29,885 nt of DNA. Source: an uncultured Dehalococcoidaceae bacterium (GTDB lineage: Bacteria > Chloroflexota > Dehalococcoidia > Dehalococcoidales > RBG-16-60-22). Shown here one piece after another: positions 2,704 to 29,885 of this stretch. Location: the NCBI GenBank assembly GCA_964503235.1, contig CAZCZJ010000013.1:1-29885 (forward strand), read 5' to 3'. Position 1 is the first letter of the stretch. Each line of letters opens with the position of its first letter. The position numbers were made by a program, and so were the translations under genes. The notes under the pieces were generated by a model, which did not search any database, was not told the origin of the DNA, and saw only the letters and a list, made by a program, of their open reading frames with translations.

Positions 2704-3939
2704 TCAATTTTCCTGCCGGAGGGCGACATCGCCGGGGACGATGGCGTGATCGCCAATCATACTCATTGTACTGTCGGTGCTTGCCTGGCAGACCTTCTTC
2801 AACGCCAGGAGTACTTTACCGGCTACAGTTTCGTCCCAGAACCAGGCCGTAAGCACCTGGCTCGAGGCGCCTGTCTGGCCCGGTTGCGCCGTAACACCCT
2901 CAATATAGTAGGACTTCAGATCCTCAACGGCAAATTTTAGCGTATACGCCAGCGGTATATCGTCACGAGGATTGTCCGGCTCCGTACCTCCGATGAAGGC
3001 ATAAATAAAATCGCCCAGCGCCTCCAGTTCAATGCCGCTAACCCCTACCGTAGTACGCTGACGCTTGGCCACGGCCATGTCGTACCAGGGGCGCATGGCT
3101 GTCATCTCCCGGCGGAACGCCACCTGCAGCGGATCGGTTTCTCCGGGCTCTACCGCGTCCTGGGCGAAATCCACCGGGCAGGCCAGCACCGTTATTTCAC
3201 CGGTCGTCTCCGGTTCTTCCTCGGGGAAGTCCTCCAGCCGCGGGCCATCGGGTACCTCAAACATCCCCGTAAGGGCCAGTAGTACCCGCCTCTGGAAGGC
3301 AGCATCATCGGGCGGCCCCAGGGGACGCCCCAGCTCAAAAGGCACCCACAAGGCACGGGGCGGCTGGATAATCTCCGTGTGTAGCCGGATAAGGCTAATG
3401 CTGGCTGTCGGCACGCCTTCTTCTTCAATAAAGTGTCCCAGCACGCCTACGGCGCGCGTGCATCCCGGTCAGGAAGGAAAGAGCAGGACGGCGTCAACCT
3501 TGTCCTTCTTGAGCATACCAGCGACTTCTCTAATCGGCTCTGTAGAATCCTCTTTAGCACGGCTGCTGTTGTAGGAATAGTGAAAATCGGCCACGCTGCC
3601 GATAATACCTTCAGCCGCCATCTCGCGGAGCCTGTCAAGGGGAAAAACGACGTTCCAGTCCCGCTGGTACCCGGTGCGGTCCATACCGGCCGAAAGATGG
3701 GACATAACCAGGTCATTAGCCCGGACATCGCCCGGGATAACGCGGTAGTAATCGTCCTGAACCAGTTGAAAAGGTCGGTCGTGGCGGGTGTGAAGTCCGG
3801 CTGTGGTGATAATGGCCACGCGCCTCTGCCTCAAGGGCGGCCCTTTGACCCAGGGTCTGGTTTCAAATGATGGGCAAATTTGCGCCATCCTTTGAGTGAG
3901 TTCTCTCTCGGCTTCGCTTAATGTCTCCAGACGAACCAT
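2704..3939 (-). CDS. GrdB/PrdB-family selenoprotein (glycine/sarcosine/betaine/D-proline reductase B family) with in-frame UGA (Sec) at 3471-3469; about 411 aa
   Basis: ORFs 3469..3939 and 2704..3444 are in the same frame, separated only by TGA plus 8 sense codons. The read-through gives ...VDAVLLFPS-U-PGCTRAVGVLGHFIEEEGVP. This parallels the GrdB Sec site ...AVILTST-U-GTCTRCGATMVKEIERAGIP (recalled from memory). The upstream VFPLDRLREMAAEGIIG block is also GrdB-like. Confidence 0.75.
3441..3461 (-). promoter_or_regulatory. Candidate bacterial SECIS hairpin
   Basis: The mRNA reads UGA CCG GGA U-GCACGC-GCGCCGUAG-GCGUGC. This is a 6 bp GC-rich stem starting 8 nt after the UGA, with a 9 nt loop containing GU. 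Confidence 0.35.
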
Positions 3940-7476: not shown

Positions 7477-10134
7477 TTAGCTCAATTTAGCCATGGAGTA
7501 TCCGGCCTTGGCCAGAATTTTGGGAATACCTCTCACTAAGGTACGGTCTTTTTTCTTCTCTATTTCAGAAAGATGCTCCCAGGGGACCATGTCTTTATGC
7601 AGTCTTTTTTCTTTATCGGTTGTTTCCGCATGCTGCCAGCCATTCTCTAACTTCAGCTTAGTCCACCGTTCGTGCTCTATTTGGGCTAGTTTTTCAACTT
7701 CTGTATCCTTAAATTCACCGGAAGCTTTACCACCCCGGGCCGGGAGCATGGCATATCCGATACTCGCCAGTTTATTAGCAATGTCACGGACATTATCCCG
7801 ATTCTGCTCCTTTTCATCCTCAGGTAATTCCGCATAAGGCCTTAGCGAGCTATGTTCTTTTTTATCATTACGTGTTTTCGGTCCATATTTATAACCTTTA
7901 GCTTCCAAATCTTCGCAAAATACCTCGTGGGTCGCTTCGGCAAGCTTCTCAAGCAGGTCAGAGCTCATCGTCAGATGATGCACCAAAGTATAAAATTCAC
8001 TGCCGTCTACATGCAAATTCAACTGCGTCTCCGTGGGTAGGCTGGAACGCTCGAAGCTCGTTTTGCCAGACAACTGGCTCGTGGTGATTATGGTTTCCAT
8101 CGACCGGGCGCCGTGTTTGTATCCCTTGATTAATAAGAAGGCGCGCAGCAGACCTTCATCGATGTTTACAGTACCATCACTATTCAGGAGTTGGGGTGTG
8201 TTTCGTTCTAAGACCGAACGCAGGAGAATGGCGCGGCGGATGACATGATATGGGTCTCCACCTCGCCCGGACACGCCTTTATCTTCCTGCCTGTTCGGCC
8301 CGAGAATATTGAGGAATCCTCTGATTCGGCTGACAAAATCAGGCAGCTTCACTGCCCGGCGGTTTTCATCTTCGAGATTTGCCCCGAATGCCTCCAGACT
8401 ATGGCTGGAACCGCCAGCAAAGACGAAGATACTCCTGCCTATCGGGTGAATTATCTGACCATCCTGGAATTCGCCGTCCTGCATCGGCGCCAGGAAATAG
8501 CGTAGCCAGCCCAGCGGCTGACCCTGCAGAGCGGTATCGAATTCGTCCCAAAAGACGAGAGGAATCTTGCCGGATAACGCTTTATCACGTACCTGATTGA
8601 AGGCGTCAAGTAAATCATAAGGTTCGCCTAATTGTGAGAGGTTAAAACTCAATGCCTCGATTTCCCGCGGACGTATCGAATTGGCTACCTGACTTACCGC
8701 GAAAGATTTTCCGGCTCCAGGCGGACCGAAAACAGCGATGGAGAGAGGCTTCTTCTCGATTCGCTGGCAATATTCACTAATCAGACTGCTTATGCAGTTC
8801 AAGGCTTCGATTTCCCGGCGGTCTACCGTTACAAGTTTCCCGAATCTCCTTACCGGCACACCCGACAGTGCGTTATGCAAACCCTCACGCACAATCTTTT
8901 GGGCCACTTTTTCAAGGGATTCCGGGTTTTGGTCCTCAAGGATGGTCCAAAAAGATGGTGCTTCTGCATCAATAGTCGTGGTTGCCTTTGCAGAAAGTAC
9001 ATCCGCCGGGTTCCTGATTGGTGCGTTTGCCAGGCTATCAGTCTTATCTGCCAGTCTGGTCGCTATCTTTGAGATTGGAAAAGCAGCCGGGTTTTGCCTC
9101 AGGTCGCCAACGGCATCACCATATCCTTCAATGTGAAGAAATCGCGTGGCGCCAAGGCCGGACTGAATACCTCTATGCAGATTCGGGGTAGAAGTATTGA
9201 GCATTAACTCTCTGGCAATACCCGCAATAAGGCAAGTATTATAGCCAATCATGTACCCTCGATAGTTACGACCCCATTCACCTTCCATCACTTCTGGATC
9301 AAAGAACAGGGTAGCATCCAGGGTGCGGTCCGATTTCCGTGATAGCAGTATGGCACCAGCTGTATCAAAGGAGATAACAACATGTAAGCATCGTGTGATT
9401 GCGTTCACATGAGGATTATACAGGAGCTCCCAAACCAAATCCTGGGCTGTCCTCTCCCATGATATTTGGCGACTTATATGGACATCGGCATGGCAGCGAA
9501 GGTCGTTGGCGGTCATGACAGCTATAAGCTGGTCGGCATGATGTTCCTGCAAATGGTTCCAGAGCTTGCCCTCGGCGACGGGTCGCGCGATTTTAAGGAG
9601 GACCCAGGGACGGGAAGTGTCACTCGATAGAGCACGAGGCCAGTATTCCTGATGGTCGCGAAATCCAAGGTTGGCATCATCCAGGATAATAAGATCCGGG
9701 TTCGGAGGGTCATTAACGACTTTTTGCCAGTCATCTGATGAAGTTGTATCGGCACCTGCCCGGTCCAGCCCCAGGAATTCCTGCACACGCCAGACCTTTC
9801 TTTTCTGACTCGCGTTGCGTTCATCGAGCTCAAATGGTGCCCATGTAGCATAGGAATGGTGGAATCGATCGTCGCCGGGTCTTACTGGCTCCTGGGGCAT
9901 ATTAGTTTCTCGGACTTCAAATATGGTTCGCCTGGATTCACCTAAGTTCTTGGCAACCGCTTTGATTATGTCCGCCAACATCGCTGCGCCCCCTCGTTGG
10001 CAACAGGCTCGAGTTAGATCTTCAGCGTTCCAACCCTCCGTAAGGACATCTCTTCGTTGTATACGAACTATATTCCAGTCGATGGTGACATCCCCGGTCA
10101 CGACAACTAATTTCGCACTCTTTCCCTTGTTCAT
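7477..10134 (-). CDS. Multidomain protein: N-terminal ribokinase/pfkB-like domain (degenerate), AAA+ ATPase, and two C-terminal RyR (ryanodine-receptor repeat) domains
   Basis: Start moved to ATG 10134, which has AAAGGAGG 5 nt upstream. Walker A is GPPGAGKS (about 8705-8728). Walker B is LVFWDEFD (about 8536-8562). Sensor region is HGARSME. RyR repeats are EKLAEATHEVF...LRPYAELPEDEKEQNRD (about 7750-7953) and EKLAQIEHERW...MVPWEHLSEIEKKKDR (about 7492-7698). pfkB-like blocks are LVVVTGDVTIDWN, RGGAAMLA, LIILDDANLGF, IAVMTANDL and VVISFDTAGAILL (about 9120-10116). Confidence 0.8.
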   Translation of the reverse strand: MNKGKSAKLVVVTGDVTIDWNIVRIQRRDVLTEGWNAEDLTRACCQRGGAAMLADIIKAVAKNLGESRRTIFEVRETNMPQEPVRPGDDRFHHSYATWAPFELDERNASQKRKVWRVQEFLGLDRAGADTTSSDDWQKVVNDPPNPDLIILDDANLGFRDHQEYWPRALSSDTSRPWVLLKIARPVAEGKLWNHLQEHHADQLIAVMTANDLRCHADVHISRQISWERTAQDLVWELLYNPHVNAITRCLHVVISFDTAGAILLSRKSDRTLDATLFFDPEVMEGEWGRNYRGYMIGYNTCLIAGIARELMLNTSTPNLHRGIQSGLGATRFLHIEGYGDAVGDLRQNPAAFPISKIATRLADKTDSLANAPIRNPADVLSAKATTTIDAEAPSFWTILEDQNPESLEKVAQKIVREGLHNALSGVPVRRFGKLVTVDRREIEALNCISSLISEYCQRIEKKPLSIAVFGPPGAGKSFAVSQVANSIRPREIEALSFNLSQLGEPYDLLDAFNQVRDKALSGKIPLVFWDEFDTALQGQPLGWLRYFLAPMQDGEFQDGQIIHPIGRSIFVFAGGSSHSLEAFGANLEDENRRAVKLPDFVSRIRGFLNILGPNRQEDKGVSGRGGDPYHVIRRAILLRSVLERNTPQLLNSDGTVNIDEGLLRAFLLIKGYKHGARSMETIITTSQLSGKTSFERSSLPTETQLNLHVDGSEFYTLVHHLTMSSDLLEKLAEATHEVFCEDLEAKGYKYGPKTRNDKKEHSSLRPYAELPEDEKEQNRDNVRDIANKLASIGYAMLPARGGKASGEFKDTEVEKLAQIEHERWTKLKLENGWQHAETTDKEKRLHKDMVPWEHLSEIEKKKDRTLVRGIPKILAKAGYSMAKLS

Positions 10135-10316
10135 GTCCGCCTCCTTTGTTATGCTGTTAATCGGCCCTATCACCTAAGAACCGTCGGAAATCCTTATAGA
10201 GGTTCTCAAACCACATCGCTGTCTGAGTCAAGAGCCACAAGCTCTCCACCTTTTCAACCTAATTCCGATAATTCCTGTTGGGCGTTTTCCTGCACTTATC
10301 CTCCTGTATCGTACCG

Positions 10317-12029
10317 TCAGTGGTCTCCCTCAGGTTCAACGAGGCTGAAGATAAACACTCCACGGGTTGTGTCCGTGGAAAATGCCAGGTCGTCCACCGC
10401 AAACACACTGCTGACCTCTTCCATGGCTGAGTAGTCAGCTATCATAACCGGATTTTGTGGGTCGCTGATGTCGATAGCCATAATCCCGCTCTCAAGAATT
10501 TCCGTCCAGGTGCCGTGGTCTATACCGAAGGAATACGTCACATAGGCGATGTTACCGGTGATGGAAATCTGCATGGTGGTAAGCCGGCCGGTGGCCCCCG
10601 GCGGTATCAGCTCATGCGGTCCCACGGGTACGTATCGCCCTATTTTAATGGGTTGTGAGGGTACGCTCACATCAATTATCTCCAGTCCTGCGGACCATCC
10701 CACCACGTAGGCTGTTTTACCCACCACGGCGATTCCCGACCCCCAATCACTGGTATCGAACTGCCCTATTTGCACCGGCTCGGAGGGATTTCTGACATCA
10801 ACCAGGTGGAAATCATTTGCAAGTACGTAGGCGACATTATCCGCCACGACCAATCCGGGATAGGCAACATTGGAATTAAACTCAAATTCACCGAGCTTAA
10901 CCGGGCTCGAAGGCACGCTTGTATCAAGGAGGGTCAGGCTATCGGAGGTGGTTAAATAGACAATATTACCAACCACGGCAATCTTATTCAGGGAACGAAA
11001 GTCATCGTGCTCGTACTCTCCTACTTCTACCGGATTGGAGGGAATGCCCACATCTAACAACAGCAGCCTGTCGCGCAGGGCTTTATTCCCCTGTATTCCC
11101 CCTTGCTCGATTACGTAGGCGATGTTATCAACGACCACCACGTTCTCAACACTGTTCTCGACGATTTCAAGGGAGTACTGACCTATCTTCTTTGGCTCAG
11201 AGGGCAGGCTGATATCCAGCACCAGTAAACCGTCACCGCCGTTGGCTACATAGGCTATATTGTCAACGACAAAGACACTATTTGCCTCGCGGGAAGTGCT
11301 GTAGGTTCCTATATGATTAAGAGATAGCTCGGTCGCTGTCTCACTTCCTGCATCCTCCTCGCCGGATGTGTTGAAATATAGCCAACTGCCGATTACAGCT
11401 ACAATTATGATGAAAACCGACGCTATCCCCCAGGCCCATCGTCCTCTCAATTTGTTTAGCCACTTCCCGCCGGCCTTACCAGCAGCTTTGGGTATTGGCA
11501 AGTCGTAGGCCGGCAAGTCAGGCTTGGTGCCTCCCTTTATCACGCCGGGTGACGGAGTTTCGCGGAGCATCCTACGTATCCGTTCCAGTCGCGATACATC
11601 AGGTTTGGATGTCGGGTGAATGTCCAGGGCTTTGAGTCCATCGACGATGCGGTCCAAGATACCGGTGATTCCCTCCTGCGGAATGAGTATCGATGTGGCC
11701 GAGCCCAGGGCTTCCCGCCATTCCGGCTGGCGGTTTTGAAATTCTACATGGCTGATGTCCCGCAGCACCGGGATAAAGTATATGCCGGTTTCGTGCGCTC
11801 TAACGACTTCTCTGGTGACCTGCCGGGAACCGAGCGAATGCGGGGATATCACCAGGATAACGGCCTGGGATTGCTCAATCGCTGCTCCTGTTTGCAGGAG
11901 GTACGAAGGACCTGGTATGCTGTCCAGCTCGTAAGACCAGGTCGAATAACCTGCCTCCTCCAGCTTAAGAGCAATCTCTAAGGCAACATCAGCATCTTCT
12001 TCAACATGGCTGATGAATATATGGCTCAT
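10317..12029 (-). CDS. TIR-domain protein with a single transmembrane helix and an extracytoplasmic 7-repeat LVIVD beta-propeller
   Basis: The N-terminus IFISHVEEDADVALEIALKLEEAGYSTWSY...AVILVISPHSLGSRQVTREV fits the TIR_2 pattern. The TM helix WAWGIASVFIIIVAVIGSWLYF (about 11373-11438) is preceded by a K/R-rich segment. Seven NIAYV...L.V.D.S.PS.P..IG repeats follow. GGAGG lies 6 nt upstream of the ATG. Confidence 0.85.
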   Translation of the reverse strand: MSHIFISHVEEDADVALEIALKLEEAGYSTWSYELDSIPGPSYLLQTGAAIEQSQAVILVISPHSLGSRQVTREVVRAHETGIYFIPVLRDISHVEFQNRQPEWREALGSATSILIPQEGITGILDRIVDGLKALDIHPTSKPDVSRLERIRRMLRETPSPGVIKGGTKPDLPAYDLPIPKAAGKAGGKWLNKLRGRWAWGIASVFIIIVAVIGSWLYFNTSGEEDAGSETATELSLNHIGTYSTSREANSVFVVDNIAYVANGGDGLLVLDISLPSEPKKIGQYSLEIVENSVENVVVVDNIAYVIEQGGIQGNKALRDRLLLLDVGIPSNPVEVGEYEHDDFRSLNKIAVVGNIVYLTTSDSLTLLDTSVPSSPVKLGEFEFNSNVAYPGLVVADNVAYVLANDFHLVDVRNPSEPVQIGQFDTSDWGSGIAVVGKTAYVVGWSAGLEIIDVSVPSQPIKIGRYVPVGPHELIPPGATGRLTTMQISITGNIAYVTYSFGIDHGTWTEILESGIMAIDISDPQNPVMIADYSAMEEVSSVFAVDDLAFSTDTTRGVFIFSLVEPEGDH

Positions 12030-22525: not shown

Positions 22526-23992
22526 ATGGTTGCCAAAGAAAAGCTGGTGAAAATTGTCGGGGCAGCCAACGTTAGTGACAAACAGGCTGCGTTGGACGAA
22601 TATTCCAGTGATATCAGTTTCGTGAATCCCGTCAGGCCAGCATACGTGGTCAAGCCCAAGAACACGGATGCTATACAAAAGCTGGTAAAACTGGCCAATA
22701 AAACTCAAACACCACTGGTTCCGGTGAGTTCGGGCCCTCCCCATTTCCGGGGTGATACCGTTCCCGGTACTGGTGGGGCCGTTATCGTGGATTTAGGCGG
22801 TATGAAAAAGATAATATTTGTCGACCGGGCGCGCCGTGTTGCCATGATAGAGCCCGGAGTGACCTTCGGTGAACTTATACCAGCGGCGGAAAAGGAGGGC
22901 ATCAGACTCAATATGCCGCTGCTGCCGAGGAAGTCGAAGACCGTCATTGGCAGTATGCTGGAGAGAGAGCCGGTAATAATGCCCAAGTATCAATGGGATA
23001 TATCGGACCCGTTAGCTTGTGTTGAGGTTATCTTTGGAAGTGGAGACGAGTTTAGAACCGGGCAGGCGGCTGGTCCGGGTACGGTAAAGGAGCAGTGGGA
23101 CGTCGGGGGTATCCAAAAAGCGCCGTACGGACCCGGTATCGCGTCCTGGCACCGGCTTATCCAGGGCTCTCAGGGGACCATGGGTATCGTCACATGGGCA
23201 TCGATGAGATGTGAAATACTCCCCAGTCTCGAAGAGCCTTTCGTGGTTGGCTCCTCCAACCTCGAGACGCTGCTCGAAATGACTTCCTGGCTGATAAGAC
23301 TGAGGATGGTCAACGAATGCTTTATACTCAATAATACCAACCTGGCGGCTATCTTCGCCAAGAAATGGCCCAAGGACTATCAGACCATCAAGGATGTCTT
23401 ACCCACTTGGATTCTTTTCTATAATTTAGCGGGGTACGAGTATCTCCCGGAGGAAAGGATTAGCTCTTATATTACCGACATCAATGAGATAACCCAGCGA
23501 CTGGGCGTGGAAGCGGTAAAGGCAGTCGGTGAAGTTTCGGCAAATGAAATACTAAAAGCGGTCCAGCAGCCTTCAGCAGAGCCCTACTGGAAGCTCCGTT
23601 ATAAAGGGGCCTGCGAGGACCTGTACCTTTTAACCATCCATGATAAACTCGAGGGTCTGATCGGGGAGATGAATGACCTGGCTGATAAAGCTGGCTACTC
23701 TTCTTCAGACATGGGTATTTACATTCAGCCGATAGTACAGGGCACCGGCTATCACTGTGAGTTTAATCTGTTTTATGACCCCGGAAATTCAAGTGAGCGA
23801 AATCGAATTAAGGAGCTGTCCGCTTCGGCCATCAAGAGCTTAATGGCCAAGGGCGCCTTCTTCTCAAGGCCTTACGGTGAAAGTGCCGGGATGATTCTAA
23901 ACAGAGATGCGGCTACCGTCGGGGTTTTAAATAAACTCAAGAATATGTTTGACCCCAACCATGTCATGAATCCGGGGAAGGTGTGCTTCTAA
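22526..23992 (+). CDS. FAD-binding oxidoreductase, PCMH/FAD_binding_4 type (GlcD/D-lactate dehydrogenase-like)
   Basis: 488 aa. The N-terminal region VVKPKNTDAIQKLVKLAN...LVPVSSG...VIVDLGGMKKI...EPGVTFGEL is typical of the FAD_binding_4 fold. Confidence 0.8.
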   Translation: MVAKEKLVKIVGAANVSDKQAALDEYSSDISFVNPVRPAYVVKPKNTDAIQKLVKLANKTQTPLVPVSSGPPHFRGDTVPGTGGAVIVDLGGMKKIIFVDRARRVAMIEPGVTFGELIPAAEKEGIRLNMPLLPRKSKTVIGSMLEREPVIMPKYQWDISDPLACVEVIFGSGDEFRTGQAAGPGTVKEQWDVGGIQKAPYGPGIASWHRLIQGSQGTMGIVTWASMRCEILPSLEEPFVVGSSNLETLLEMTSWLIRLRMVNECFILNNTNLAAIFAKKWPKDYQTIKDVLPTWILFYNLAGYEYLPEERISSYITDINEITQRLGVEAVKAVGEVSANEILKAVQQPSAEPYWKLRYKGACEDLYLLTIHDKLEGLIGEMNDLADKAGYSSSDMGIYIQPIVQGTGYHCEFNLFYDPGNSSERNRIKELSASAIKSLMAKGAFFSRPYGESAGMILNRDAATVGVLNKLKNMFDPNHVMNPGKVCF

Positions 23993-24044
23993 AGTGCATT
24001 AAAAGAAGTAATTAATTATTGAATGAAAATAGGAGGTAGCGAAG

Positions 24045-25313
24045 ATGGGACTGGAACAATATAAAGGCGATATGGAGATGTGCTGCCGGTGTTCCGCCTG
24101 CAAATTTATACCCATGCAGAGGGTAAAGGGAAATCAGTATGCATATGCGTGTCCCAGCATATCAAGATATAATTTCCACGCCTACTCGGGCGGTGGTAGA
24201 TTAAATATCGGCGCGGCGATGTTGAAGGACGGGATGAAGTACACGGATAAACTACTTGATATCGTTTATAACTGCCAGTTGTGCGGCGCCTGTGGGGTCT
24301 CCTGTAATTATGCCATGGACATGGAAGTCCTCGAGCCCATCAGCGAATTCAGGATAAAATGTGTCGAGGATGGGAAAACCAATCCCGCCCTCGATAAGGT
24401 AATCGCCAACCTTAGAAAACAGGGCTCTATGGTAATCGGTGCTAGGGGTAAACGCGGCGCCTGGGCTGCCGGACTGAATATCAAGGATGCCACTAAAGAG
24501 AAGGTGGATGTCCTCTATCATGTCGGCTGCCTGACCAGCTATGACAAGAATATGCAGAAAATGGCTAAAGCTACTGTAAAAATATTGCAGAAAGCTGGTA
24601 TCAATTTCGGCATTGCCGGCGACGCCGAGACATGCTGCGGCGGCCGGGCCTACCAGATGGGCTACACCAAAGACTTCCTCAACCAGGCCAAGAAAAACAT
24701 GGCCATGATCAAAAAATCCGGTGCCAAGACGGTGGTAACAAGCTGCGCCGATGGTTACCAGGCTTTTAAGGTCCTCTATGACAGGTTCAACCTGAAAGGC
24801 GACCTCAAAGTGCTGCATATCTCGGAATACATCGATAAACTGATAAGAGACGGCAAGCTGAAACCGCGAAAGAAAGTCGATATGGCGGTCACCTACCATG
24901 ACCCGTGCCGTCTCGGTAGACTGGGTGAGCCGTGGGTACACTGGGAAGGTAAAAAGATTCCGGGCGACCGGTTTGTTTTCGACCCGCCCAAGCCATACCG
25001 ACGCGGCACCAACGGCGTTTACGAACCGCCCCGTGATGTTCTCAAGAGCATTCCCGGTGTAAAACTCACGGAAATGACCAGGATTAAGGAATACTCCTGG
25101 TGCTGCGGGGCCGGTGGCGGTGTCAATGATTCCAATCCCGAGTTTGCCAAGTGGACTGCCCAGGATAGAATAGAGGAAGCTATTTCTACCGGTGCCGAGG
25201 CGCTCGTTACCGCCTGTCCCTGGTGTGAAAAGAATTTTACCGAAGCTATCAAGGATAGTGGTAGTAATCTTAAAGTATACGATATCGTTGAACTCGTGGA
25301 AAAGGCAATATAG
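24045..25313 (+). CDS. Fe-S binding protein with two CCG domains (HdrD/GlcF-like)
   Basis: Ferredoxin-like Cys motifs CCRCSACKF and CQLCGACGVSC. CCG signatures CCGGRAYQ and CCGAGGG. AGGAGG lies 8 nt upstream. Confidence 0.85.
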   Translation: MGLEQYKGDMEMCCRCSACKFIPMQRVKGNQYAYACPSISRYNFHAYSGGGRLNIGAAMLKDGMKYTDKLLDIVYNCQLCGACGVSCNYAMDMEVLEPISEFRIKCVEDGKTNPALDKVIANLRKQGSMVIGARGKRGAWAAGLNIKDATKEKVDVLYHVGCLTSYDKNMQKMAKATVKILQKAGINFGIAGDAETCCGGRAYQMGYTKDFLNQAKKNMAMIKKSGAKTVVTSCADGYQAFKVLYDRFNLKGDLKVLHISEYIDKLIRDGKLKPRKKVDMAVTYHDPCRLGRLGEPWVHWEGKKIPGDRFVFDPPKPYRRGTNGVYEPPRDVLKSIPGVKLTEMTRIKEYSWCCGAGGGVNDSNPEFAKWTAQDRIEEAISTGAEALVTACPWCEKNFTEAIKDSGSNLKVYDIVELVEKAI

Positions 25314-25331
25314 GAAAGGGGGTAATGAATC

Positions 25332-26801
25332 ATGGCTTTAAGCAAAGAGGTATATAAGGAATTCGAATGTGTGGTGGGCGAGGAGAATATCTGTGATGAC
25401 CCGGCCATAATGCCGGCGTATTACAATAACAAATTCGCCGCCGTAATTCTTCCGGGGAATACCGCCGAGGTTCAGGCGGTAGTCAAGCTATGCAACAAAC
25501 ACAAGTTGGTATTCAGACCCATATGTACTGGCTGGTCAGGGATGTTTCCCCCGGATATTATCCTGTTAGACCTGAGAAGGATGAACCACATAATTGAAAT
25601 CAACGAGAAAAATATGTACGCCGTGGTTGAGCCGTACGTAATCTCGTCACAGCTGCAGGCCGAGTTGTTCAAAAGGGGCCTTAACTTCTGCATCAAGGGT
25701 GCCGGGACTAACTGCACGGCGATGCTCAGGGGCCACGGACATATGGACCAGACCACCAGCGGTGACGACCGAAACCACCTGGCTATAGAATGGATCACTC
25801 CCGAAGGGGACATCGTCAGGTCGGGCGCACTTGGCTCTTCGGATGAGTGGTTCTGCGGCGACGGGCCGGGTCCGTCTATCAGGAGCATACTTACCAGTGC
25901 CGTGCCGCCGGGCGTCACACCGGGAGTATTTACCAAGGCCGCAGTAAAGCTTTACCACTGGCCGGGGCCTTCAGCCTATCCCATAGAAGGGGTATCACCG
26001 AATTATGCCCTGAGTGAGATACCGCCGAACATGATGGCGCGGTATTACAGCTTCCCATCGGTGGAGAAGATGTGGCAGGCGGAGCTAGCTATCGGTGAAA
26101 GTGAGATATCGTTCGAGCTGATGGGTTTTAATATTTCGATGGTAGCCGCGAATATCACCACCAGCAATGAAGAAGAAGAGGAGACTTTCAACCGTCTGAG
26201 CAAGGAAGTGATAGGACCCGGCTTCTTCGTCATAATAGCGGGCAACTCGGCGGCTGACTTTGCCTACAAGAAGAAGGTACTGGAGAAGATTGTCAGCGAA
26301 GCTGACGGCAAGTCGTTGAAAGCAGCCGAAGACCCCAGAATCGAAGGCATTCTGATGTGTCAGTGCACGAGAATCTCCGCCTCTATCAGAGAGACATTCC
26401 GTAATGGCGGAGCCTTCAACTCAATCCCGATAATGGGCCAGAGAGACCTGACTATCAAGTGGGCGATAGGGGCTGGTAAAGCCAAGGAGCCCTTGATTGA
26501 AAAGGGCTATATCGTGGATGATGGCGGAGCCTTTTTCGGATGGGGAGTCGAGCAGGGACATCTGGGTAAAACGGAGATATTCTGCAAATTCGACCCTCAA
26601 AATGCCGAAGCCAAGGCTGCCGTAGAAGCCTGGCAGAAACAGGAAAACCTGAGGGCTTTCAAGGAGCGCTACTTTGCATCTACAATGGGTCCGCAGGATG
26701 AAATCGGGCCGGCTCTCTGCAATTACAACCAGTGGTGGAGTAAGCTGGTGAAAGCACTTGATCCTAACGGGGTATCACCCGAGGGTGGTGCACTCGTCTA
26801 G
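25332..26801 (+). CDS. FAD-binding oxidoreductase, second PCMH-type subunit (GlcD/GlcE-like, divergent)
   Basis: 489 aa. VILPGNTAEVQAVVKLCNKHKL...ILLDLRRMNHII...EPYVISSQL fits the FAD_binding_4 N-terminal domain. Confidence 0.75.
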   Translation: MALSKEVYKEFECVVGEENICDDPAIMPAYYNNKFAAVILPGNTAEVQAVVKLCNKHKLVFRPICTGWSGMFPPDIILLDLRRMNHIIEINEKNMYAVVEPYVISSQLQAELFKRGLNFCIKGAGTNCTAMLRGHGHMDQTTSGDDRNHLAIEWITPEGDIVRSGALGSSDEWFCGDGPGPSIRSILTSAVPPGVTPGVFTKAAVKLYHWPGPSAYPIEGVSPNYALSEIPPNMMARYYSFPSVEKMWQAELAIGESEISFELMGFNISMVAANITTSNEEEEETFNRLSKEVIGPGFFVIIAGNSAADFAYKKKVLEKIVSEADGKSLKAAEDPRIEGILMCQCTRISASIRETFRNGGAFNSIPIMGQRDLTIKWAIGAGKAKEPLIEKGYIVDDGGAFFGWGVEQGHLGKTEIFCKFDPQNAEAKAAVEAWQKQENLRAFKERYFASTMGPQDEIGPALCNYNQWWSKLVKALDPNGVSPEGGALV

Positions 26802-26843
26802 TTCCTGCATAGGGAATCACCCTCGATAATAAGTAAACAACAG

Positions 26844-26880
26844 CACCTCCAGGTTATACGACCCGGGGGTGTTGTTTTTT
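26844..26880 (+). terminator. Rho-independent terminator of the FAD/FeS/FAD operon
   Basis: CACCTCC (26844-26850), 14 nt loop, GGGGGTG (26865-26871). This gives 7 bp including one G-U, followed by TTGTTTTTT. Confidence 0.6.
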
Positions 26881-26999
26881 ATCTTGTATTGCCTGATAAA
26901 ACTCCAGATAAAACCAAAATCCACTTTCATGCCATACCCCGATGAGATATTTGTCATATACATAATTAAATATTTCCATTATTCTCTATAGTGAAAATA

Positions 27000-27034: not shown

Positions 27035-27259
27035 ATGGCTGAGATAAAAGTTGAGTGCATCGGGGAAACCTGCCCGGTTCCGCTGGTAGAGACCCGTAAA
27101 GCTCTCCGGAAGGCTCAGGAAGGTGACATAGTTGAAGTTATCGGTACGCATCCTTCCTCCAAGAAAGAAATACCGATGGCGGTAAAAGCCATGGGACTGG
27201 AATTACTGGATGTAAAAGAGGAAAAGGACGGGACTTGGAAAATCAGGATACGCCGGTAA
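27035..27259 (+). CDS. tusA: TusA/SirA-family sulfur carrier protein
   Basis: CIGETCPVPLVETRKAL matches the CxxxxCPxP TusA motif. Start moved to ATG 27035, which has GGAGG 8 nt upstream. The ORF track begins at TTG 27020. Confidence 0.85.
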   Translation: MAEIKVECIGETCPVPLVETRKALRKAQEGDIVEVIGTHPSSKKEIPMAVKAMGLELLDVKEEKDGTWKIRIRR

Positions 27260-27274
27260 ACGGAGGTAACAGCC

Positions 27275-27694
27275 ATGGGAAATAAAGCGGCAATTATAGT
27301 TCACAGCGGTGATATGGATAAACTTTACAGTGCCCTTATCCTGGGCAACGGCGCCCTGGCAATGGGTATGGACGTCTACCTTTTCTTTACCTTCTGGGGG
27401 CTGCAACGTCTCAAGAAGGGCGGACTGGAAAAGGGACCGCTTTCCAAGATGAACATGTTCGGTCTGGGGAAGTGGATGATAAAGCGAAAAATGAAACAGG
27501 CAAAAGTAGCCTCGCTGGAAAGGATGTTTCAGGATTTCAAGGAACTCGGCGGGAACGTTCTTGCCTGTGACATGACGATGGATATCATGGGTGTCAAGAA
27601 GGAAGACCTGCGTGACGACTTGATATCGGATTATTGTGGAGTGGGCACTTACATGGATGTGGCTAAGGACGCATCGGTAACCCTGTTTATATAG
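27275..27694 (+). CDS. DsrE/DsrF-like sulfur-relay family protein (DsrE2/COG2210-type)
   Basis: 139 aa. AAIIVHSGDMDKLYSALILGNGALAMG...YLFFTFWGL...LACDMTMD is typical of the DsrE_2 family. Lies immediately downstream of tusA. Confidence 0.75.
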   Translation: MGNKAAIIVHSGDMDKLYSALILGNGALAMGMDVYLFFTFWGLQRLKKGGLEKGPLSKMNMFGLGKWMIKRKMKQAKVASLERMFQDFKELGGNVLACDMTMDIMGVKKEDLRDDLISDYCGVGTYMDVAKDASVTLFI

Positions 27695-27706: not shown

Positions 27707-28891
27707 ATGCAGGAAAAACGTGTATACCTGGATAATGCTGCGTCTACCCGACTTGATGAGCGGGTGCTGGAAGCGATGACACCGTATTTCTTCGATACCT
27801 ACGCGGTGGCTACTTCCGAGTTCGCCTATACACAGGGTATAGAAGCCCGCGAAACCCTGGACGAAACCCGGGGAAAGCTGGCTAAAGCGCTGGGCGCCGA
27901 GCCGGAGGAGTTCGTTTTCACCTCGGGCAGCACCGAATCGTCGAATATGGCTCTCAAAGGCGTTGCCCTTGCCCTGGGCAAGAAGAAAGGAAAACATATC
28001 ATTGTATCCAAGATAGAAGATTTTCCCGTTCTCCAGAGCGCCGAAGCCCTGGAAAGAGAGGGGTTCCAGGTTACCTATCTCGATGTTGACGGTGACGGAC
28101 TGGTTAATCTTGACCAGCTTAAAGAGTCCATTACCGATGAGACAATCCTGGTTTCCATCCAGCATGCCAACCAGGAAATCGGCACCATCCAGGATATTGC
28201 CGGCATCGGCGCTGTCTGCCGGGAGAAGGGTGTTCTGTTCCATACCGATGCCACGCATACCTTCGGTCGTGTTCCACTGAATATGAAGAAGATACCGGTG
28301 GACTTGGTCACCGTGTCAGCCCATACTATCCACGGACCCAAGGGCATCGGCGGGCTTTACGTACGCAAGGGGACACCGTTAACCAAGTGGATGGATGGCG
28401 GTTTCCAGGAGTTTGACCTCCGTGCTGGACTGGAAAATATTCCGGGGGCGGTCGGATTCGCTAAAGCAGTAGAACTCATCACGCCAGAAGAAAACAAGCT
28501 CTTGCGGGCGATGCGTAACCACGCCATCAGCCGCATATTAAAAGAAATCCCGGACACAACGCTTAACGGCCACCGCCGCAAAAGGTTGCCGCATAACGTA
28601 AACATTTCCTTCCACTTCGTCGAAGGTGAATCGATAACGCTGCACCTGGATATACATGGCTTTGCCGTCAGCACCGGCTCCGCCTGTTTCAGTCGTTCTC
28701 TCCAGGGCAGCCACGTTATCTACGGTATCGGCGGCGACCACGAAAGAGCCCACGGCTCGATACGTATTACCCTGGGACGCTACAATACCATGGAAGAGGT
28801 GGATGCCGTGGTGGATACATTGGCTGAGGTTATCAGCGAGTTGAGGAAAATCAGCCCGCTGGGTAAAGAAAAATATGGTGAGGAGGTTTGA
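27707..28891 (+). CDS. Class V aminotransferase-fold cysteine desulfurase homologue (IscS/NifS-like) lacking the PLP-binding lysine
   Basis: VYLDNAAST, HANQEIGTIQDI and HTDATHTFG are present, and the active-site loop STGSACFS has Cys327 (28685-28687). The canonical S-x-H-K motif reads SAHT here, with ACT (Thr207) at 28325-28327. Confidence 0.85.
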   Translation: MQEKRVYLDNAASTRLDERVLEAMTPYFFDTYAVATSEFAYTQGIEARETLDETRGKLAKALGAEPEEFVFTSGSTESSNMALKGVALALGKKKGKHIIVSKIEDFPVLQSAEALEREGFQVTYLDVDGDGLVNLDQLKESITDETILVSIQHANQEIGTIQDIAGIGAVCREKGVLFHTDATHTFGRVPLNMKKIPVDLVTVSAHTIHGPKGIGGLYVRKGTPLTKWMDGGFQEFDLRAGLENIPGAVGFAKAVELITPEENKLLRAMRNHAISRILKEIPDTTLNGHRRKRLPHNVNISFHFVEGESITLHLDIHGFAVSTGSACFSRSLQGSHVIYGIGGDHERAHGSIRITLGRYNTMEEVDAVVDTLAEVISELRKISPLGKEKYGEEV

Positions 28892-28892
28892 T

Positions 28893-29528
28893 ATGAAATT
28901 TCCCTATAGTGAGACCGTACTGGAGCATTTTCGCCATCCCCATAACGTGGGGGAAATAGAAAATCCCGATGGAAAATCGATGGAAGGCAGCCCCGCCTGT
29001 GGCGATATGGTTGCCGTATATATCAAGGTAGCCCCGGATAAAAAAACGATAGAGGACATCAAGTTTGAATCTTACGGCTGCGCCTCAAATATTGCTACCG
29101 GCTCTATTATTACCGAGCTGGCCAAGGGGAAAACACTTGACGAGGCCAAGAAAATAACCTGGAAAGAAGCTTCGGACGCGCTGGGTGGACTCCCTAAAAT
29201 CAAGGCGCACTGCTCGGTGCTGGCTATCGAAGGTCTGCGGTCGGCGATTCAAAACTACGAAGAAAAGCACGGACTAATCAAGAAAAGGGAACCCACCACG
29301 GTGGAAACTGTACGTAAACGCTTGCGGAAGGTGATGAATCCGCTAGCCGGCCTGGACCTGGTGCGTACCAATCTGGTGAAGGACATTGAATTGAAAGACG
29401 GCACTGTCCGGGTGGCTATAGATTTGCCCAAGAACCACCAGTTTGCGGCGGCGATAAAAGAAGAGATAGACGAGAAGATAGAACCTCTGTGGGATGTCAA
29501 AGAAGTGATAGTCGATTTTACGGAATAG
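28893..29528 (+). CDS. iscU: IscU/NifU-type Fe-S scaffold fused to a C-terminal DUF59/MIP18-like domain
   Basis: IscU motifs PACGDMV, YGCASNIA and AHCSVLA are present. The C-terminal 80 aa (RKRLRKVMNPLAGLDLVRTNLVKDIELKDGTVRVAIDLP) fit the DUF59 pattern. Start moved to ATG 28893, which has GAGGAGG 6 nt upstream. Confidence 0.8.
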   Translation: MKFPYSETVLEHFRHPHNVGEIENPDGKSMEGSPACGDMVAVYIKVAPDKKTIEDIKFESYGCASNIATGSIITELAKGKTLDEAKKITWKEASDALGGLPKIKAHCSVLAIEGLRSAIQNYEEKHGLIKKREPTTVETVRKRLRKVMNPLAGLDLVRTNLVKDIELKDGTVRVAIDLPKNHQFAAAIKEEIDEKIEPLWDVKEVIVDFTE

Positions 29529-29775: not shown

Positions 29776-29885
29776 ATGTCAGATAATATAAAAATCCCGT
29801 TTAAAATCCCAGTTAAACCCATTCCGACAGAAGATATCAAAGAGACTTTTAATACCGATGTCGTGGTAGCAGGTGCGGGGACATC
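29776..29885 (+). CDS. FAD-dependent oxidoreductase, N-terminal 36 codons only (runs off the window)
   Basis: GGAGGA lies 9 nt upstream of ATG 29776. Translation MSDNIKIPFKIPVKPIPTEDIKETFNTDVVVAGAGT ends in the start of a GxGxxG dinucleotide-binding motif. Not in the ORF track. Confidence 0.5.
   Translation, partial: MSDNIKIPFKIPVKPIPTEDIKETFNTDVVVAGAGT

What the first reader, a model, noticed from the sequence alone, without database searches (positions are those of the whole stretch)
28319..28330. IscS/NifS homologue has Thr instead of the PLP Schiff-base lysine
The universally conserved S-x-H-K motif (SGHKIYGPKG in E. coli IscS, Lys206) reads SAHTIHGPKG. The codon at 28325-28327 is ACT, which needs two base changes from AAA or AAG. 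The nearby DA(A/V)Q motif is also altered, to DATH. The persulfide-forming Cys loop (STGSACFS, Cys327) is retained.

Without the lysine, normal PLP-dependent cysteine desulfuration should be impossible. A precedent I recall is Archaeoglobus fulgidus IscS, where the lysine is replaced, PLP is absent, and the protein acts with IscU as a scaffold partner.
Basis: partly seen in the sequence, partly recalled or inferred. Interest (0 to 1): 0.65.

Follow-up and report, generated by a model that had tools for sequence, protein, structure and literature searches.

The report
PLP-lysine-less IscS in sulfur-relay operon
This salt-marsh Dehalococcoidia gene encodes an IscS-type protein that has lost the lysine needed for cysteine desulfurase chemistry; the loss is real and conserved, was already noted in the Methanosarcina orthologue IscS1, and sits in a conserved four-gene operon for iron-sulfur cluster assembly found in many anaerobes.

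Summary
Codon 207 of ORF 27707-28891 is ACT (Thr). It lies, without gaps, in the column of the PLP Schiff-base lysine (E. coli IscS K206).

Four other PLP contacts are also changed: H104D, N155Q, Q183H and T243L. Cys327 and Arg353 are kept.

This is not an error or a decaying gene. The identical protein occurs on five independent contigs. dN/dS is 0.05-0.10. All 80 genome relatives inspected (66-84% identity; Chloroflexota, Nitrospirota, Syntrophales, Atribacterota, Clostridia, methanogens, Heimdallarchaeota) carry the same remodelled pocket.

69 of the 80 also carry all four genes on one strand: tusA, dsrE2, iscS*, and iscU fused to DUF59.

The protein is the direct orthologue of M. acetivorans IscS1 (MA0808, also 'SAHT'). 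Deere et al. 2020 noted that IscS1 lacks the lysine but did not characterise it. It belongs to a different lineage from the structurally studied A. fulgidus K-to-D IscS.

Most likely it is a PLP-free partner of the IscU scaffold that supplies Cys327. Sulfur may reach it through TusA and DsrE2 rather than from cysteine; this step is inferred.

Verdict: new member of a known kind, moderate interest.

The parts
26829..26887 (+). Strong hairpin followed by a U-run. It is probably the intrinsic terminator of the upstream FAD-oxidase gene and marks the 5' boundary of the tusA operon.
   Evidence: RNA fold gives -29.3 kcal/mol, z = -6.8, and 0 of 200 shuffles fold as well. The sequence was read. An AT-rich stretch and a GGAGG Shine-Dalgarno follow before ATG 27035.
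27035..27259 (+). tusA (SirA-like sulfur carrier, 74 aa). The CPxP cysteine Cys13 is at 27071-27073.
   Evidence: Pfam TusA, 2.2e-22. The same 74-aa gene is called in L090. Cys13 is invariant in 77 of 77 orthologues.
27275..27694 (+). dsrE2-type sulfur-carrier gene (139 aa). The conserved cysteine Cys98 is at 27566-27568.
   Evidence: Pfam DrsE_2, 2.1e-35. The best PDB hit is 2qs7, 2.9e-23, which PMC11094781 calls DsrE2B. Cys98 is invariant in 76 of 76 orthologues.
27707..28891 (+). iscS* (394 aa): a type-I cysteine-desulfurase fold without the PLP lysine. It is the orthologue of M. acetivorans IscS1 (MA0808).
   Evidence: Pfam Aminotran_5, 2.4e-71. PDB hits at 5e-100. AF2 pLDDT 95.3. Foldseek TM 0.92-0.96 to NFS1, IscS and AfIscS.
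28325..28327 (+). Codon ACT = Thr207, in the column of the Schiff-base lysine (E. coli K206).
   Evidence: Across 82 orthologues the residue is T in 76, L in 5 and S in 1.
28019..28021 (+). Asp105, replacing the PLP-stacking His104.
   Evidence: Invariant in 82 of 82 orthologues.
28172..28174 (+). Gln156, replacing Asn155 (a contact of PLP O3').
   Evidence: Present in 81 of 82 orthologues.
28247..28258 (+). D181-A-T-H184. Asp180 is kept and Gln183 is replaced by His.
   Evidence: Both residues are invariant in 82 of 82 orthologues.
28685..28687 (+). Cys327 in the loop STGSACFS. This is the persulfide or cluster-ligand cysteine and it is retained.
   Evidence: Invariant in 82 of 82 orthologues. 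The loop has a lower pLDDT of 69, consistent with a mobile loop.
28893..29528 (+). iscU fused to a C-terminal DUF59 (FeS_assembly_P) domain, 211 aa. The start codon lies 1 nt after the iscS* stop and is preceded by GGAGG.
   Evidence: Pfam NifU_N, 1.8e-39, plus FeS_assembly_P, 3.4e-13. The best PDB hit is A. fulgidus IscU, 4eb5_C, which is 153 aa and has no DUF59. Cys36, Cys63 and Cys107 are invariant. The same 211-aa gene is called in L090.

Best explanation
The gene encodes a catalytically dead, PLP-free member of the IscS/NifS (type I cysteine desulfurase) fold. It is a pseudo-desulfurase and belongs to the M. acetivorans IscS1 (MA0808) orthologous group.

It no longer makes persulfide from cysteine. 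It keeps the mobile Cys327 loop and acts as the obligate partner of the IscU~DUF59 scaffold, whose gene starts 1 nt after the iscS* stop codon. By analogy with the A. fulgidus (IscS-IscU)2 complex, Cys327 most likely holds or ligates the nascent Fe-S cluster, or its sulfur, on IscU.

The sulfur comes from elsewhere. The two sulfur carriers that travel with it in the same operon, TusA (CPxP Cys13) and DsrE2 (Cys98), are the obvious candidates to pass sulfane sulfur as a persulfide to Cys327 or IscU. Free sulfide in this sulfidic habitat is the alternative. The DUF59 domain would act as a built-in hand-over or targeting domain.

What is shown: loss of the lysine and of four further PLP contacts; retention of Cys327; the fold; strong purifying selection; the conserved four-gene operon across phyla; orthology with MA0808.

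What is inferred: absence of PLP and of activity (very likely, about 0.9); a role with IscU in Fe-S assembly (about 0.7); TusA/DsrE2 as sulfur donors (about 0.4).
For: - Lysine column and PLP contacts. The fold is intact.
- Purifying selection: dN/dS is 0.05-0.10. The identical protein occurs in 5 independent contigs.
- All 80 genome relatives carry the signature D-Q-D-H-x-H-(T/L/S) together with Cys327 and Arg353.
- 60 of 80 have the order tusA>dsrE2>iscS*>iscU~DUF59. Another 9 of 80 have iscS*>iscU~DUF59>tusA>dsrE2. All are on one strand with gaps of tens of bases.
- In the window the gaps are 15, 12 and 1 nt, each gene has a Shine-Dalgarno sequence, and a terminator lies upstream.
- The carrier cysteines and all IscU ligands are invariant.
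- More distant K-less relatives are also next to iscU, and four lineages are next to tusA: P0124, P0153, P0155 and the query clade. Three K-bearing nearest relatives have no tusA, dsrE or DUF59.
- Literature: AfIscS has no activity and supplies a Cys ligand. M. acetivorans IscS1 lacks the lysine, is detected in the proteome, and sits beside IscU1 (24.2 kDa), a DsrE-superfamily gene and a SirA-like gene.
- TusA and DsrE-type proteins bind and pass on sulfane sulfur (PMC11094781).
Against: - There is no biochemical evidence for any member of this orthologous group. IscS1 was insoluble in E. coli.
- Arg353 (the substrate-carboxylate binder), Asp181, His206 and Thr76 are retained. The substituted pocket residues are themselves invariant. 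The pocket is therefore constrained rather than simply dead, and may bind something.
- A. fulgidus iscS2-iscU2 did not complement an E. coli Fe-S mutant, even with sulfide.
- The TusA link rests on gene neighbourhood only, with few controls (3 K-bearing lineages).
- DsrE2 is missing from the more distant K-less lineages.
Confidence: 0.7

Rival explanations
1. The protein is a persulfide-carrier hub for thiolation (tRNA thiouridine or molybdenum/tungsten cofactor sulfuration) rather than for Fe-S assembly. TusA and DsrE2 exchange sulfur with Cys327 as in the E. coli IscS-TusA-TusBCD relay, and IscU is only an accessory.
For: TusA plus a DsrE-family protein next to an IscS homologue recalls the Tus relay (Pfam). 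The window is rich in Mo/W enzymes: three molybdopterin oxidoreductases and an AFOR. In L013 fdhD, a sulfurtransferase for formate dehydrogenase, lies directly downstream.
Against: iscU~DUF59 is the most constant partner and is translationally coupled. All IscU cluster ligands are invariant. No tusE, mnmA, thiI or moaD-type gene occurs in the cluster.
Confidence: 0.13
2. The remodelled pocket has gained a new ligand, for example Fe(II), Zn(II) or a small molecule held by Asp105, Asp181, His184 and His206. IscS* would then be an iron or cofactor donor rather than only a passive scaffold partner. This is compatible with the main explanation.
For: The substituted residues D105 and H184 and the retained D181 and H206 are invariant in 82 of 82 orthologues, and Q156 is present in 81 of 82. 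Only 19% of all columns are invariant. A merely vestigial pocket should drift, as positions 204 and 242 do. Arg353 is kept here but is lost in the A. fulgidus type.
Against: The invariance may only reflect an Asp/His hydrogen-bond network that fills the empty PLP cavity and stabilises the fold. More distant K-less relatives have other residues at these positions.
Confidence: 0.2
3. The protein is still an active desulfurase or lyase. It would use non-covalently bound PLP or another base, or another substrate such as selenocysteine.
For: Asp181, His206, Thr76 and Arg353 are retained.
Against: The Schiff-base and general-base lysine is absent, and no alternative lysine enters the motif (ungapped alignments). 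The stacking His104 is replaced by Asp. Asn155, Gln183 and Thr243 are changed. Ser203 is Ala in 20 of 82 orthologues. The K-less A. fulgidus protein has no activity.
Confidence: 0.04
4. The feature is a sequencing or assembly error, or a recently inactivated pseudogene.
For: None found.
Against: The identical protein occurs on 5 contigs. No read or contig variant exists at the site. The feature is conserved in more than 100 close homologues and in 80 genomes across phyla. dN/dS is 0.05-0.10. The reading frame is intact.
Confidence: 0.01

Closest known systems
Methanosarcina acetivorans IscS1 (MA0808) with IscU1 (MA0807), DsrE-superfamily MA0809 and SirA-like MA0810 (Deere et al. 2020, PMC7585200)
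   Same: It has the same motifs...VDLVT(M/V)SAHTIHGP(R/K)G, H(S/A)NQEIG, TDATH, STGSACFS, and the N-terminus YLDNAA.TRLDERV.EAM.PYFFDTYAVATSEF. It has the same gene neighbours, including a roughly 24-kDa IscU. Methanosarcinales genomes (Methanolobus, Methanohalophilus, Methanomethylovorans) fall in the same clade, which has 100% bootstrap support.
   Different: The host is a bacterium (Dehalococcoidia) rather than an archaeon. Identity to the Methanosarcinales members is about 66-70%. MA0808 itself was not included in my tree, so orthology rests on motifs, synteny and its relatives. Neither protein has been characterised.
Archaeoglobus fulgidus IscS2 (PDB 4eb5, 4eb7, 4hvk; D199K mutant 4r5f)
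   Same: It has the type-I desulfurase fold and lacks the PLP lysine. It is encoded next to IscU and keeps the Cys loop. It is the best PDB sequence hit (5e-100, about 45% identity; TM 0.92/0.96).
   Different: It is a separate lineage: 0 of 100 bootstraps join the two groups. Its substitution pattern is different. In Af the changes are K->D, H205->N, Q183->A and R354->L, with H104 and N155 kept. Here they are K->T, H104->D, N155->Q and Q183->H, with H205 and R354 kept. Af IscU is 153 aa with no DUF59. I know of no tusA or dsrE2 next to the Af genes, but this was not tested.
Canonical IscS/NifS cysteine desulfurases (E. coli IscS 1p3w; human NFS1)
   Same: The fold, the dimer-type architecture, the Cys loop and pairing with an IscU scaffold are shared. 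E. coli IscS also docks TusA (3lvj).
   Different: The Schiff-base lysine and 4 further PLP contacts are missing. Scores fall below the NCBIfam cut-offs for NifS (451 < 531 bits) and IscS (394 < 548). In E. coli, sulfur flows from IscS to TusA. Here, if TusA takes part at all, the flow must run the other way.
MIS (minimal ISC) two-gene system of anaerobes (Garcia et al. 2022, as described in PMC12192291 and PMC13066941)
   Same: It is an IscS-like plus IscU-like pair without HscAB, ferredoxin or A-type carrier, found in anaerobic bacteria and archaea.
   Different: MIS is described as having an active cysteine desulfurase. This module has a dead one, two sulfur carriers and a DUF59 fusion. Its place in the published MIS phylogeny was not tested.

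Membership tests
Type I cysteine desulfurase (IscS/NifS; Pfam Aminotran_5) | Fold-type I aminotransferase class-V fold over the full length | tested here: met
   PF00266, 2.4e-71, residues 6-368. AF2 pLDDT 95.3. Foldseek TM 0.92-0.96 and rmsd 1.4-1.6 A to NFS1, IscS and AfIscS.
Type I cysteine desulfurase (IscS/NifS; Pfam Aminotran_5) | Schiff-base lysine in the S-x-H-K motif | tested here: not met
   Thr207 occupies this column in ungapped alignments.
Type I cysteine desulfurase (IscS/NifS; Pfam Aminotran_5) | Other PLP contacts: His104, Asn155, Asp180, Gln183, Ser203, His205, Thr243' (E. coli numbering) | tested here: not met
   The residues here are D, Q, D, H, S, H, L, so 4 of 7 are changed. 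Ser203 varies across orthologues.
Type I cysteine desulfurase (IscS/NifS; Pfam Aminotran_5) | Persulfide-forming cysteine on a mobile loop | tested here: met
   Cys327 lies in STGSACFS and is invariant in 82 of 82 orthologues.
Type I cysteine desulfurase (IscS/NifS; Pfam Aminotran_5) | Curated equivalog score (NCBIfam NifS TIGR03402, IscS NF010611 and TIGR02006) | tested here: not met
   Scores are 451 < 530.75, 394 < 548 and 383 < 643 bits.
Type I cysteine desulfurase (IscS/NifS; Pfam Aminotran_5) | [quoted passage not shown] | not testable with these tools
   This needs purified protein.
M. acetivorans IscS1 (MA0808) orthologous group | SAHT in place of SxHK, together with NQEIG, DATH and STGSACFS | tested here: met
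   Fig. S2 text of PMC7585200 compared with the window protein.
M. acetivorans IscS1 (MA0808) orthologous group | Cluster with a long (~24 kDa) IscU, a DsrE-superfamily gene and a SirA/TusA-like gene | tested here: met
   The cluster is complete in 69 of 80 genome loci.
M. acetivorans IscS1 (MA0808) orthologous group | Same clade as the Methanosarcinales copies | tested here: met
   A clade of the query, P0121 and six genome-locus copies, including those of Methanolobus vulcani and a Methanomassiliicoccaceae MAG, has 100 of 100 NJ bootstraps. MA0808 itself is not in the tree.
A. fulgidus-type K-less IscS | Lysine absent, Cys loop kept, adjacent to IscU | tested here: met
A. fulgidus-type K-less IscS | Common descent and the same substitution pattern (K->D, H205->N, Q183->A, R354->L/Q) | tested here: not met
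   The pattern is different. The two groups are never joined in 100 bootstraps.
A. fulgidus-type K-less IscS | The IscS cysteine ligates the [2Fe-2S] cluster on IscU | not testable with these tools
   This needs a structure or spectroscopy of the complex.
Tus-type sulfur relay (IscS-TusA-DsrE/TusBCD) | TusA with a CPxP cysteine and a DsrE-family protein with an active-site cysteine | tested here: met
   TusA Cys13 and DsrE2 Cys98 are invariant.
Tus-type sulfur relay (IscS-TusA-DsrE/TusBCD) | Downstream acceptors (TusE/DsrC, MnmA) and an active desulfurase as the source | tested here: not met
   None is present in the cluster or its flanks. The IscS homologue lacks the lysine.

The most novel reading that the evidence does not exclude
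The four-gene module tusA-dsrE2-iscS*-iscU~DUF59 would be a self-contained, horizontally spread Fe-S assembly system of anaerobes that does not use cysteine.

In this reading, sulfane sulfur is handed as a persulfide from TusA/DsrE2 to Cys327 of a PLP-free IscS. The former PLP pocket, with its invariant Asp105, Gln156, Asp181, His184 and His206, has been re-used for a new ligand, for example the iron. The DUF59 domain delivers the finished cluster.

The loss of the lysine has occurred independently in at least four IscS lineages, and several of these have recruited TusA.
Probability: 0.25. Interest if true: 0.75.

Novelty: new member of a known kind. Interest (0 to 1): 0.42.

Why it matters
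How strict anaerobes obtain the sulfur for Fe-S clusters is still debated; the candidates are cysteine, free sulfide or carrier-bound persulfide. K-less IscS proteins have so far been treated as curiosities of A. fulgidus and one Methanosarcina paralogue.

This work shows that the window's gene belongs to a tightly conserved four-gene operon with an invariant remodelled pocket. The operon occurs in at least 80 species-level genomes across bacterial and archaeal phyla. The scan reported 536 relatives, of which only the best 80 were inspected.

This makes one hypothesis directly testable: a persulfide relay through TusA and DsrE2 feeds a dead desulfurase and its scaffold. Candidates are available in cultivable hosts: M. 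acetivorans, Methanolobus vulcani, Acidaminobacter hydrogenoformans and Anaerotalea alkaliphila.

It also matters for annotation. These genes are named 'cysteine desulfurase' in public records, which is probably wrong. Metabolic reconstructions that count them as desulfurases would overstate cysteine-dependent Fe-S synthesis.

Tried and rejected
- The first AlphaFold run used only close homologues (31 sequences, at least 79% identity). It gave pLDDT 45.7 and was discarded. A deeper alignment gave 95.3.
The geometry of Asp105, Asp181, His184 and His206, and hence the metal-site idea, could not be checked.
- The sigma-70 promoter and terminator consensus scan was uninformative for this organism. 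The upstream terminator was found by direct folding instead.
- Rfam and tRNA scans of the window found nothing.
- Expression is inconclusive. One library labelled metatranscriptomic holds only 90-95% similar fragments.
- A literature search for 'MisS/MisU/PLP' was swamped by unrelated words. Garcia et al. 2022 is not in the library. No paper links Dehalococcoidia with this system.
- I looked for a second desulfurase in the same genome. The window has only one Aminotran_5 gene, and the 10 kb downstream on an overlapping contig (L090) has none.
- I looked for a fifth conserved gene. Only lineage-restricted neighbours turned up: a CopA-like ATPase in 14 of 80 loci and Asp/Glu-racemase-like inserts in 6 of 80.
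- Rejected explanations: lysine shifted by an indel (the alignments are ungapped), sequencing error, and pseudogene.
Full report
**1. The observation**

ORF 27707-28891 (+) encodes a 394-aa protein. It is a full-length Aminotran_5 protein (PF00266, E=2.4e-71).

Bases 28319-28330 read GCC CAT ACT ATC, which is A205-H206-T207-I208. The Ser of the motif is the preceding codon.

In phmmer alignments to solved structures the stretch VTVSAHTIHGPKG aligns without any gap. It matches LTISSNDIYGPKG of A. fulgidus IscS2 (4eb5; the D199K mutant 4r5f has K at this position) and SAHKMYGPKG of a K-bearing desulfurase, 9wep.

A MAFFT alignment with E. coli IscS puts Thr207 in the K206 column. My copy of the E. 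coli sequence was verified as identical to 1p3w.

The same alignment shows further changes at PLP contacts, in E. coli numbering: H104->D105, N155->Q156, Q183->H184 and T243->L242. Thr76, Asp180, Ser203, His205, Cys328 and Arg354 are retained.

**2. Real or artefact**

- The identical protein is encoded on five contigs from separate salt-marsh metagenomes.
- The best-matching DNA runs are salt-marsh sediment.
- Contigs of one such run cover the site with no variant.
- The 120 nearest database proteins (79-96% identity, mostly Dehalococcoidia MAGs, named 'cysteine desulfurase') almost all read (S/A)AHT(I/L)HGPKG, HTDATH, SKIEDFPV and STGSACFS.
- dN/dS against three genome orthologues is 0.05-0.10, with dS of at least 1.1.

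The feature is therefore old, fixed and under purifying selection.

**3. Fold**

With a diverse 130-sequence alignment, AlphaFold gives pLDDT 95.3 and pTM 0.93. Only the Cys-loop block (69) and the C-terminal tail are lower.

Foldseek finds NFS1, E. coli IscS and A. fulgidus IscS at TM 0.92-0.96 and rmsd 1.4-1.6 A. The scaffold is intact; only the cofactor site is remodelled.

**4. Surroundings in the window**

A strong terminator hairpin (26829-26887, z=-6.8) ends the upstream FAD-oxidase gene. An AT-rich region and a GGAGG follow. Four tightly packed genes then come on the + strand:

- tusA, 27035-27259
- a dsrE2-type gene, 27275-27694. The best PDB hit is 2qs7, which PMC11094781 calls DsrE2B.
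- iscS*, 27707-28891
- iscU fused to a DUF59/FeS_assembly_P domain, 28893-29528, starting 1 nt after the iscS* stop

IscU keeps the ligands Cys36, Asp38, Cys63, His106 and Cys107.

The window contains no other Aminotran_5 gene. An overlapping contig shows none in the next 10 kb.

The rest of the window encodes Fe-S and Mo/W enzymes typical of an anaerobe.

**5. Relatives**

A scan of one genome per GTDB species found at least 536 tblastn-confirmed relatives. The best 80 (66-84% identity) were fetched. They come from:

- Dehalococcoidales and Anaerolineae
- Thermodesulfovibrionales
- Syntrophales and Desulfomonilia
- Atribacterota
- the cultured Clostridia Anaerotalea alkaliphila and Acidaminobacter hydrogenoformans
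- Methanomassiliicoccales
- Methanohalophilus, Methanolobus vulcani, Methanomethylovorans, Methanocrinis and Methanobacterium
- a Heimdallarchaeota MAG

All 80 have the pocket signature D-Q-D-H-x-H-(T/L/S) with Cys and Arg kept.

Gene order: 60 have tusA>dsrE2>iscS*>iscU~DUF59 and 9 have iscS*>iscU~DUF59>tusA>dsrE2. Most of the rest are cut by contig ends.

Across 82 orthologues only 19% of columns are invariant. Even so, D105, D181, H184, H206, C327 and R353 are invariant. Q156 is 81 of 82 and T207 is 76 of 82. Positions 204 and 242 drift. TusA Cys13, DsrE2 Cys98 and the three IscU cysteines are invariant.

The phyletic pattern implies horizontal spread of the whole module.

**6. Link to the literature**

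Deere et al. [quoted passage not shown] IscS1 (MA0808) 'lacks the catalytically essential lysine'. It has the motif STGSACFS and is detected in the proteome. It formed inclusion bodies in E. coli. It sits with IscU1 (MA0807, 24.2 kDa), MA0809 'DrsE superfamily' and MA0810 'SirA-like'.

Their Fig. S2 text shows IscS1 reading MIYLDNAACTRLDERVFEAMKPYFFDT-YAVATSEF..., HSNQEIG, TDATHSF and VDLVTMSAHTIHGPRG. This is the same protein family and the same operon as in the window. The K->T state of this orthologous group has therefore already been noted, but nobody has characterised it.

The A. fulgidus case is documented as inactive and as donor of a Cys ligand to the [2Fe-2S] cluster on IscU.

**7. 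How general is loss of the lysine?**

Of the 150 nearest 50%-identity cluster representatives, 19 lack the lysine. The replacements are T, L, M, D, P, G, A, Q and S. All 19 keep the cysteine.

Neighbour-joining trees place them in at least four groups. In a bootstrapped tree of 60 sequences:

- the MA0808-type clade has 100% support
- the same clade plus P0124 (K->L) has 84%
- the A. fulgidus-type group has 62%
- the two K-less groups are never joined (0 of 100)

Their substitution patterns also differ. NJ on long branches is only a rough guide. Even so, independent losses are the simplest reading.

**8. Context of the other K-less lineages**

- P0124: iscS*-iscU~DUF59-tusA
- P0210, an archaeon: iscS*-iscU~DUF59
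- P0155: iscS*-iscU-tusA
- P0153: iscS*-iscU-tusA
- P0129 and P0250: iscU nearby
- P0146: keeps Lys but has lost H104, N155, H205 and T243, and is also next to iscU~DUF59

Three K-bearing nearest relatives (P0125, P0126, P0128) have no tusA, dsrE or DUF59 nearby. The numbers are small. Still, tusA adjacency recurs with K-less copies.

**9. A second, intact desulfurase?**

This cannot be tested for this genome. In two Dehalococcoidales genomes (L013 = chromosome CP070842.1, and L017), a canonical operon converges on the module from downstream. Its order is cysK-cysE-NIL-iscS(SAHKLYGPKG)-iscU-fdhD.

L053 and L082 have SufS/SufU-like genes nearby. M. acetivorans has the active IscS2. Where it can be seen, the dead copy coexists with live ones.

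**10. Mechanism**

Shown:
- no Schiff-base lysine and a degenerate PLP site
- an intact fold and Cys loop
- an operon with IscU~DUF59, TusA and DsrE2, conserved under strong selection

Inferred:
- no PLP and no desulfurase activity
- a complex with IscU in which Cys327 handles sulfur or the cluster, as in A. fulgidus
- sulfur arriving as persulfide through TusA/DsrE2, proteins known to bind and pass on sulfane sulfur, or as free sulfide
- DUF59 acting as a delivery domain

The invariance of the newly acquired pocket residues suggests that the cavity has a conserved role, either structural filling or a new ligand. I could not resolve which.

**11. Classification**

By fold the protein belongs to the IscS/NifS family. 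It fails the family's defining catalytic features and the NCBIfam equivalog cut-offs. No curated family exists for it.

It is best filed as a new, bacterial member of the already noted IscS1 (MA0808)-type pseudo-desulfurases. These resemble the A. fulgidus K-less IscS in function but are not of the same lineage.

It is not new in kind. The breadth and rigidity of the four-gene module is the part that seems not to have been described in the papers I could search.

Noticed in passing
window 2704-3939 (-): Two adjacent ORFs (156 aa with a GRDB Pfam match, and 246 aa with none) are in one frame, separated only by a TGA at 3469-3471 in the context FPS-TGA-PGC. This is probably a single GrdB-like selenoprotein of about 411 aa with a selenocysteine codon. 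A hairpin starts about 10 nt downstream, but its fold energy is not better than that of shuffles.
   Followed up: partly
window 7477-12029 (-): Two adjacent genes encode a TIR-domain plus LVIVD-repeat protein (570 aa) and an AAA ATPase plus RyR-domain protein (898 aa). They may form a defence pair. PADLOC gives only weak hits to the TIR domain.
   Followed up: partly
L013 11848-16426 and L017: In two Dehalococcoidales genomes a canonical operon converges on the K-less module from downstream. Its order is cysK-cysE-NIL-iscS(K-bearing)-iscU-fdhD. Dead and live IscS-IscU pairs therefore sit side by side.
   Followed up: yes
L033 3335-4000; L035 11166-12634; also L038, L047, L050, L056: In six Dehalococcoidia/Chloroflexia loci, one or two genes of the Asp/Glu/hydantoin-racemase family (PF01177) are inserted between iscS* and iscU~DUF59.
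   Followed up: partly
14 of loci L010-L089 (e.g. L018 7513-9795); L001 11888-12043: A CopA-like P-type ATPase with a C-terminal YHS/TRASH-like tail lies downstream of the module on the same strand. In L001 a 51-aa YHS protein takes this position. This may be lineage synteny rather than a functional link.
   Followed up: no
P0146 / L008 6001-8055: This IscS homologue keeps the lysine but has lost His104, Asn155, His205 and Thr243. It is next to an IscU~DUF59 fusion, and another Aminotran_5 gene lies 2 kb upstream. It may be an intermediate state on the way to a dead enzyme.
   Followed up: no
representatives P0121-P0270: 19 of the 150 nearest cluster representatives lack the PLP lysine (T, L, M, D, P, G, A, Q, S) while all keep the loop cysteine. 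They fall in at least four separate groups, so the loss recurs among IscS/NifS-like proteins.
   Followed up: partly
window 22526-26801 (+) and 29777-29885 (+): Directly upstream of the operon lie two FAD-linked oxidase genes and a CCG/4Fe-4S protein (GlcDEF- or HdrD-like). Downstream, an FAD_binding_2 flavoprotein gene starts at about 29777 and runs off the window.
   Followed up: no
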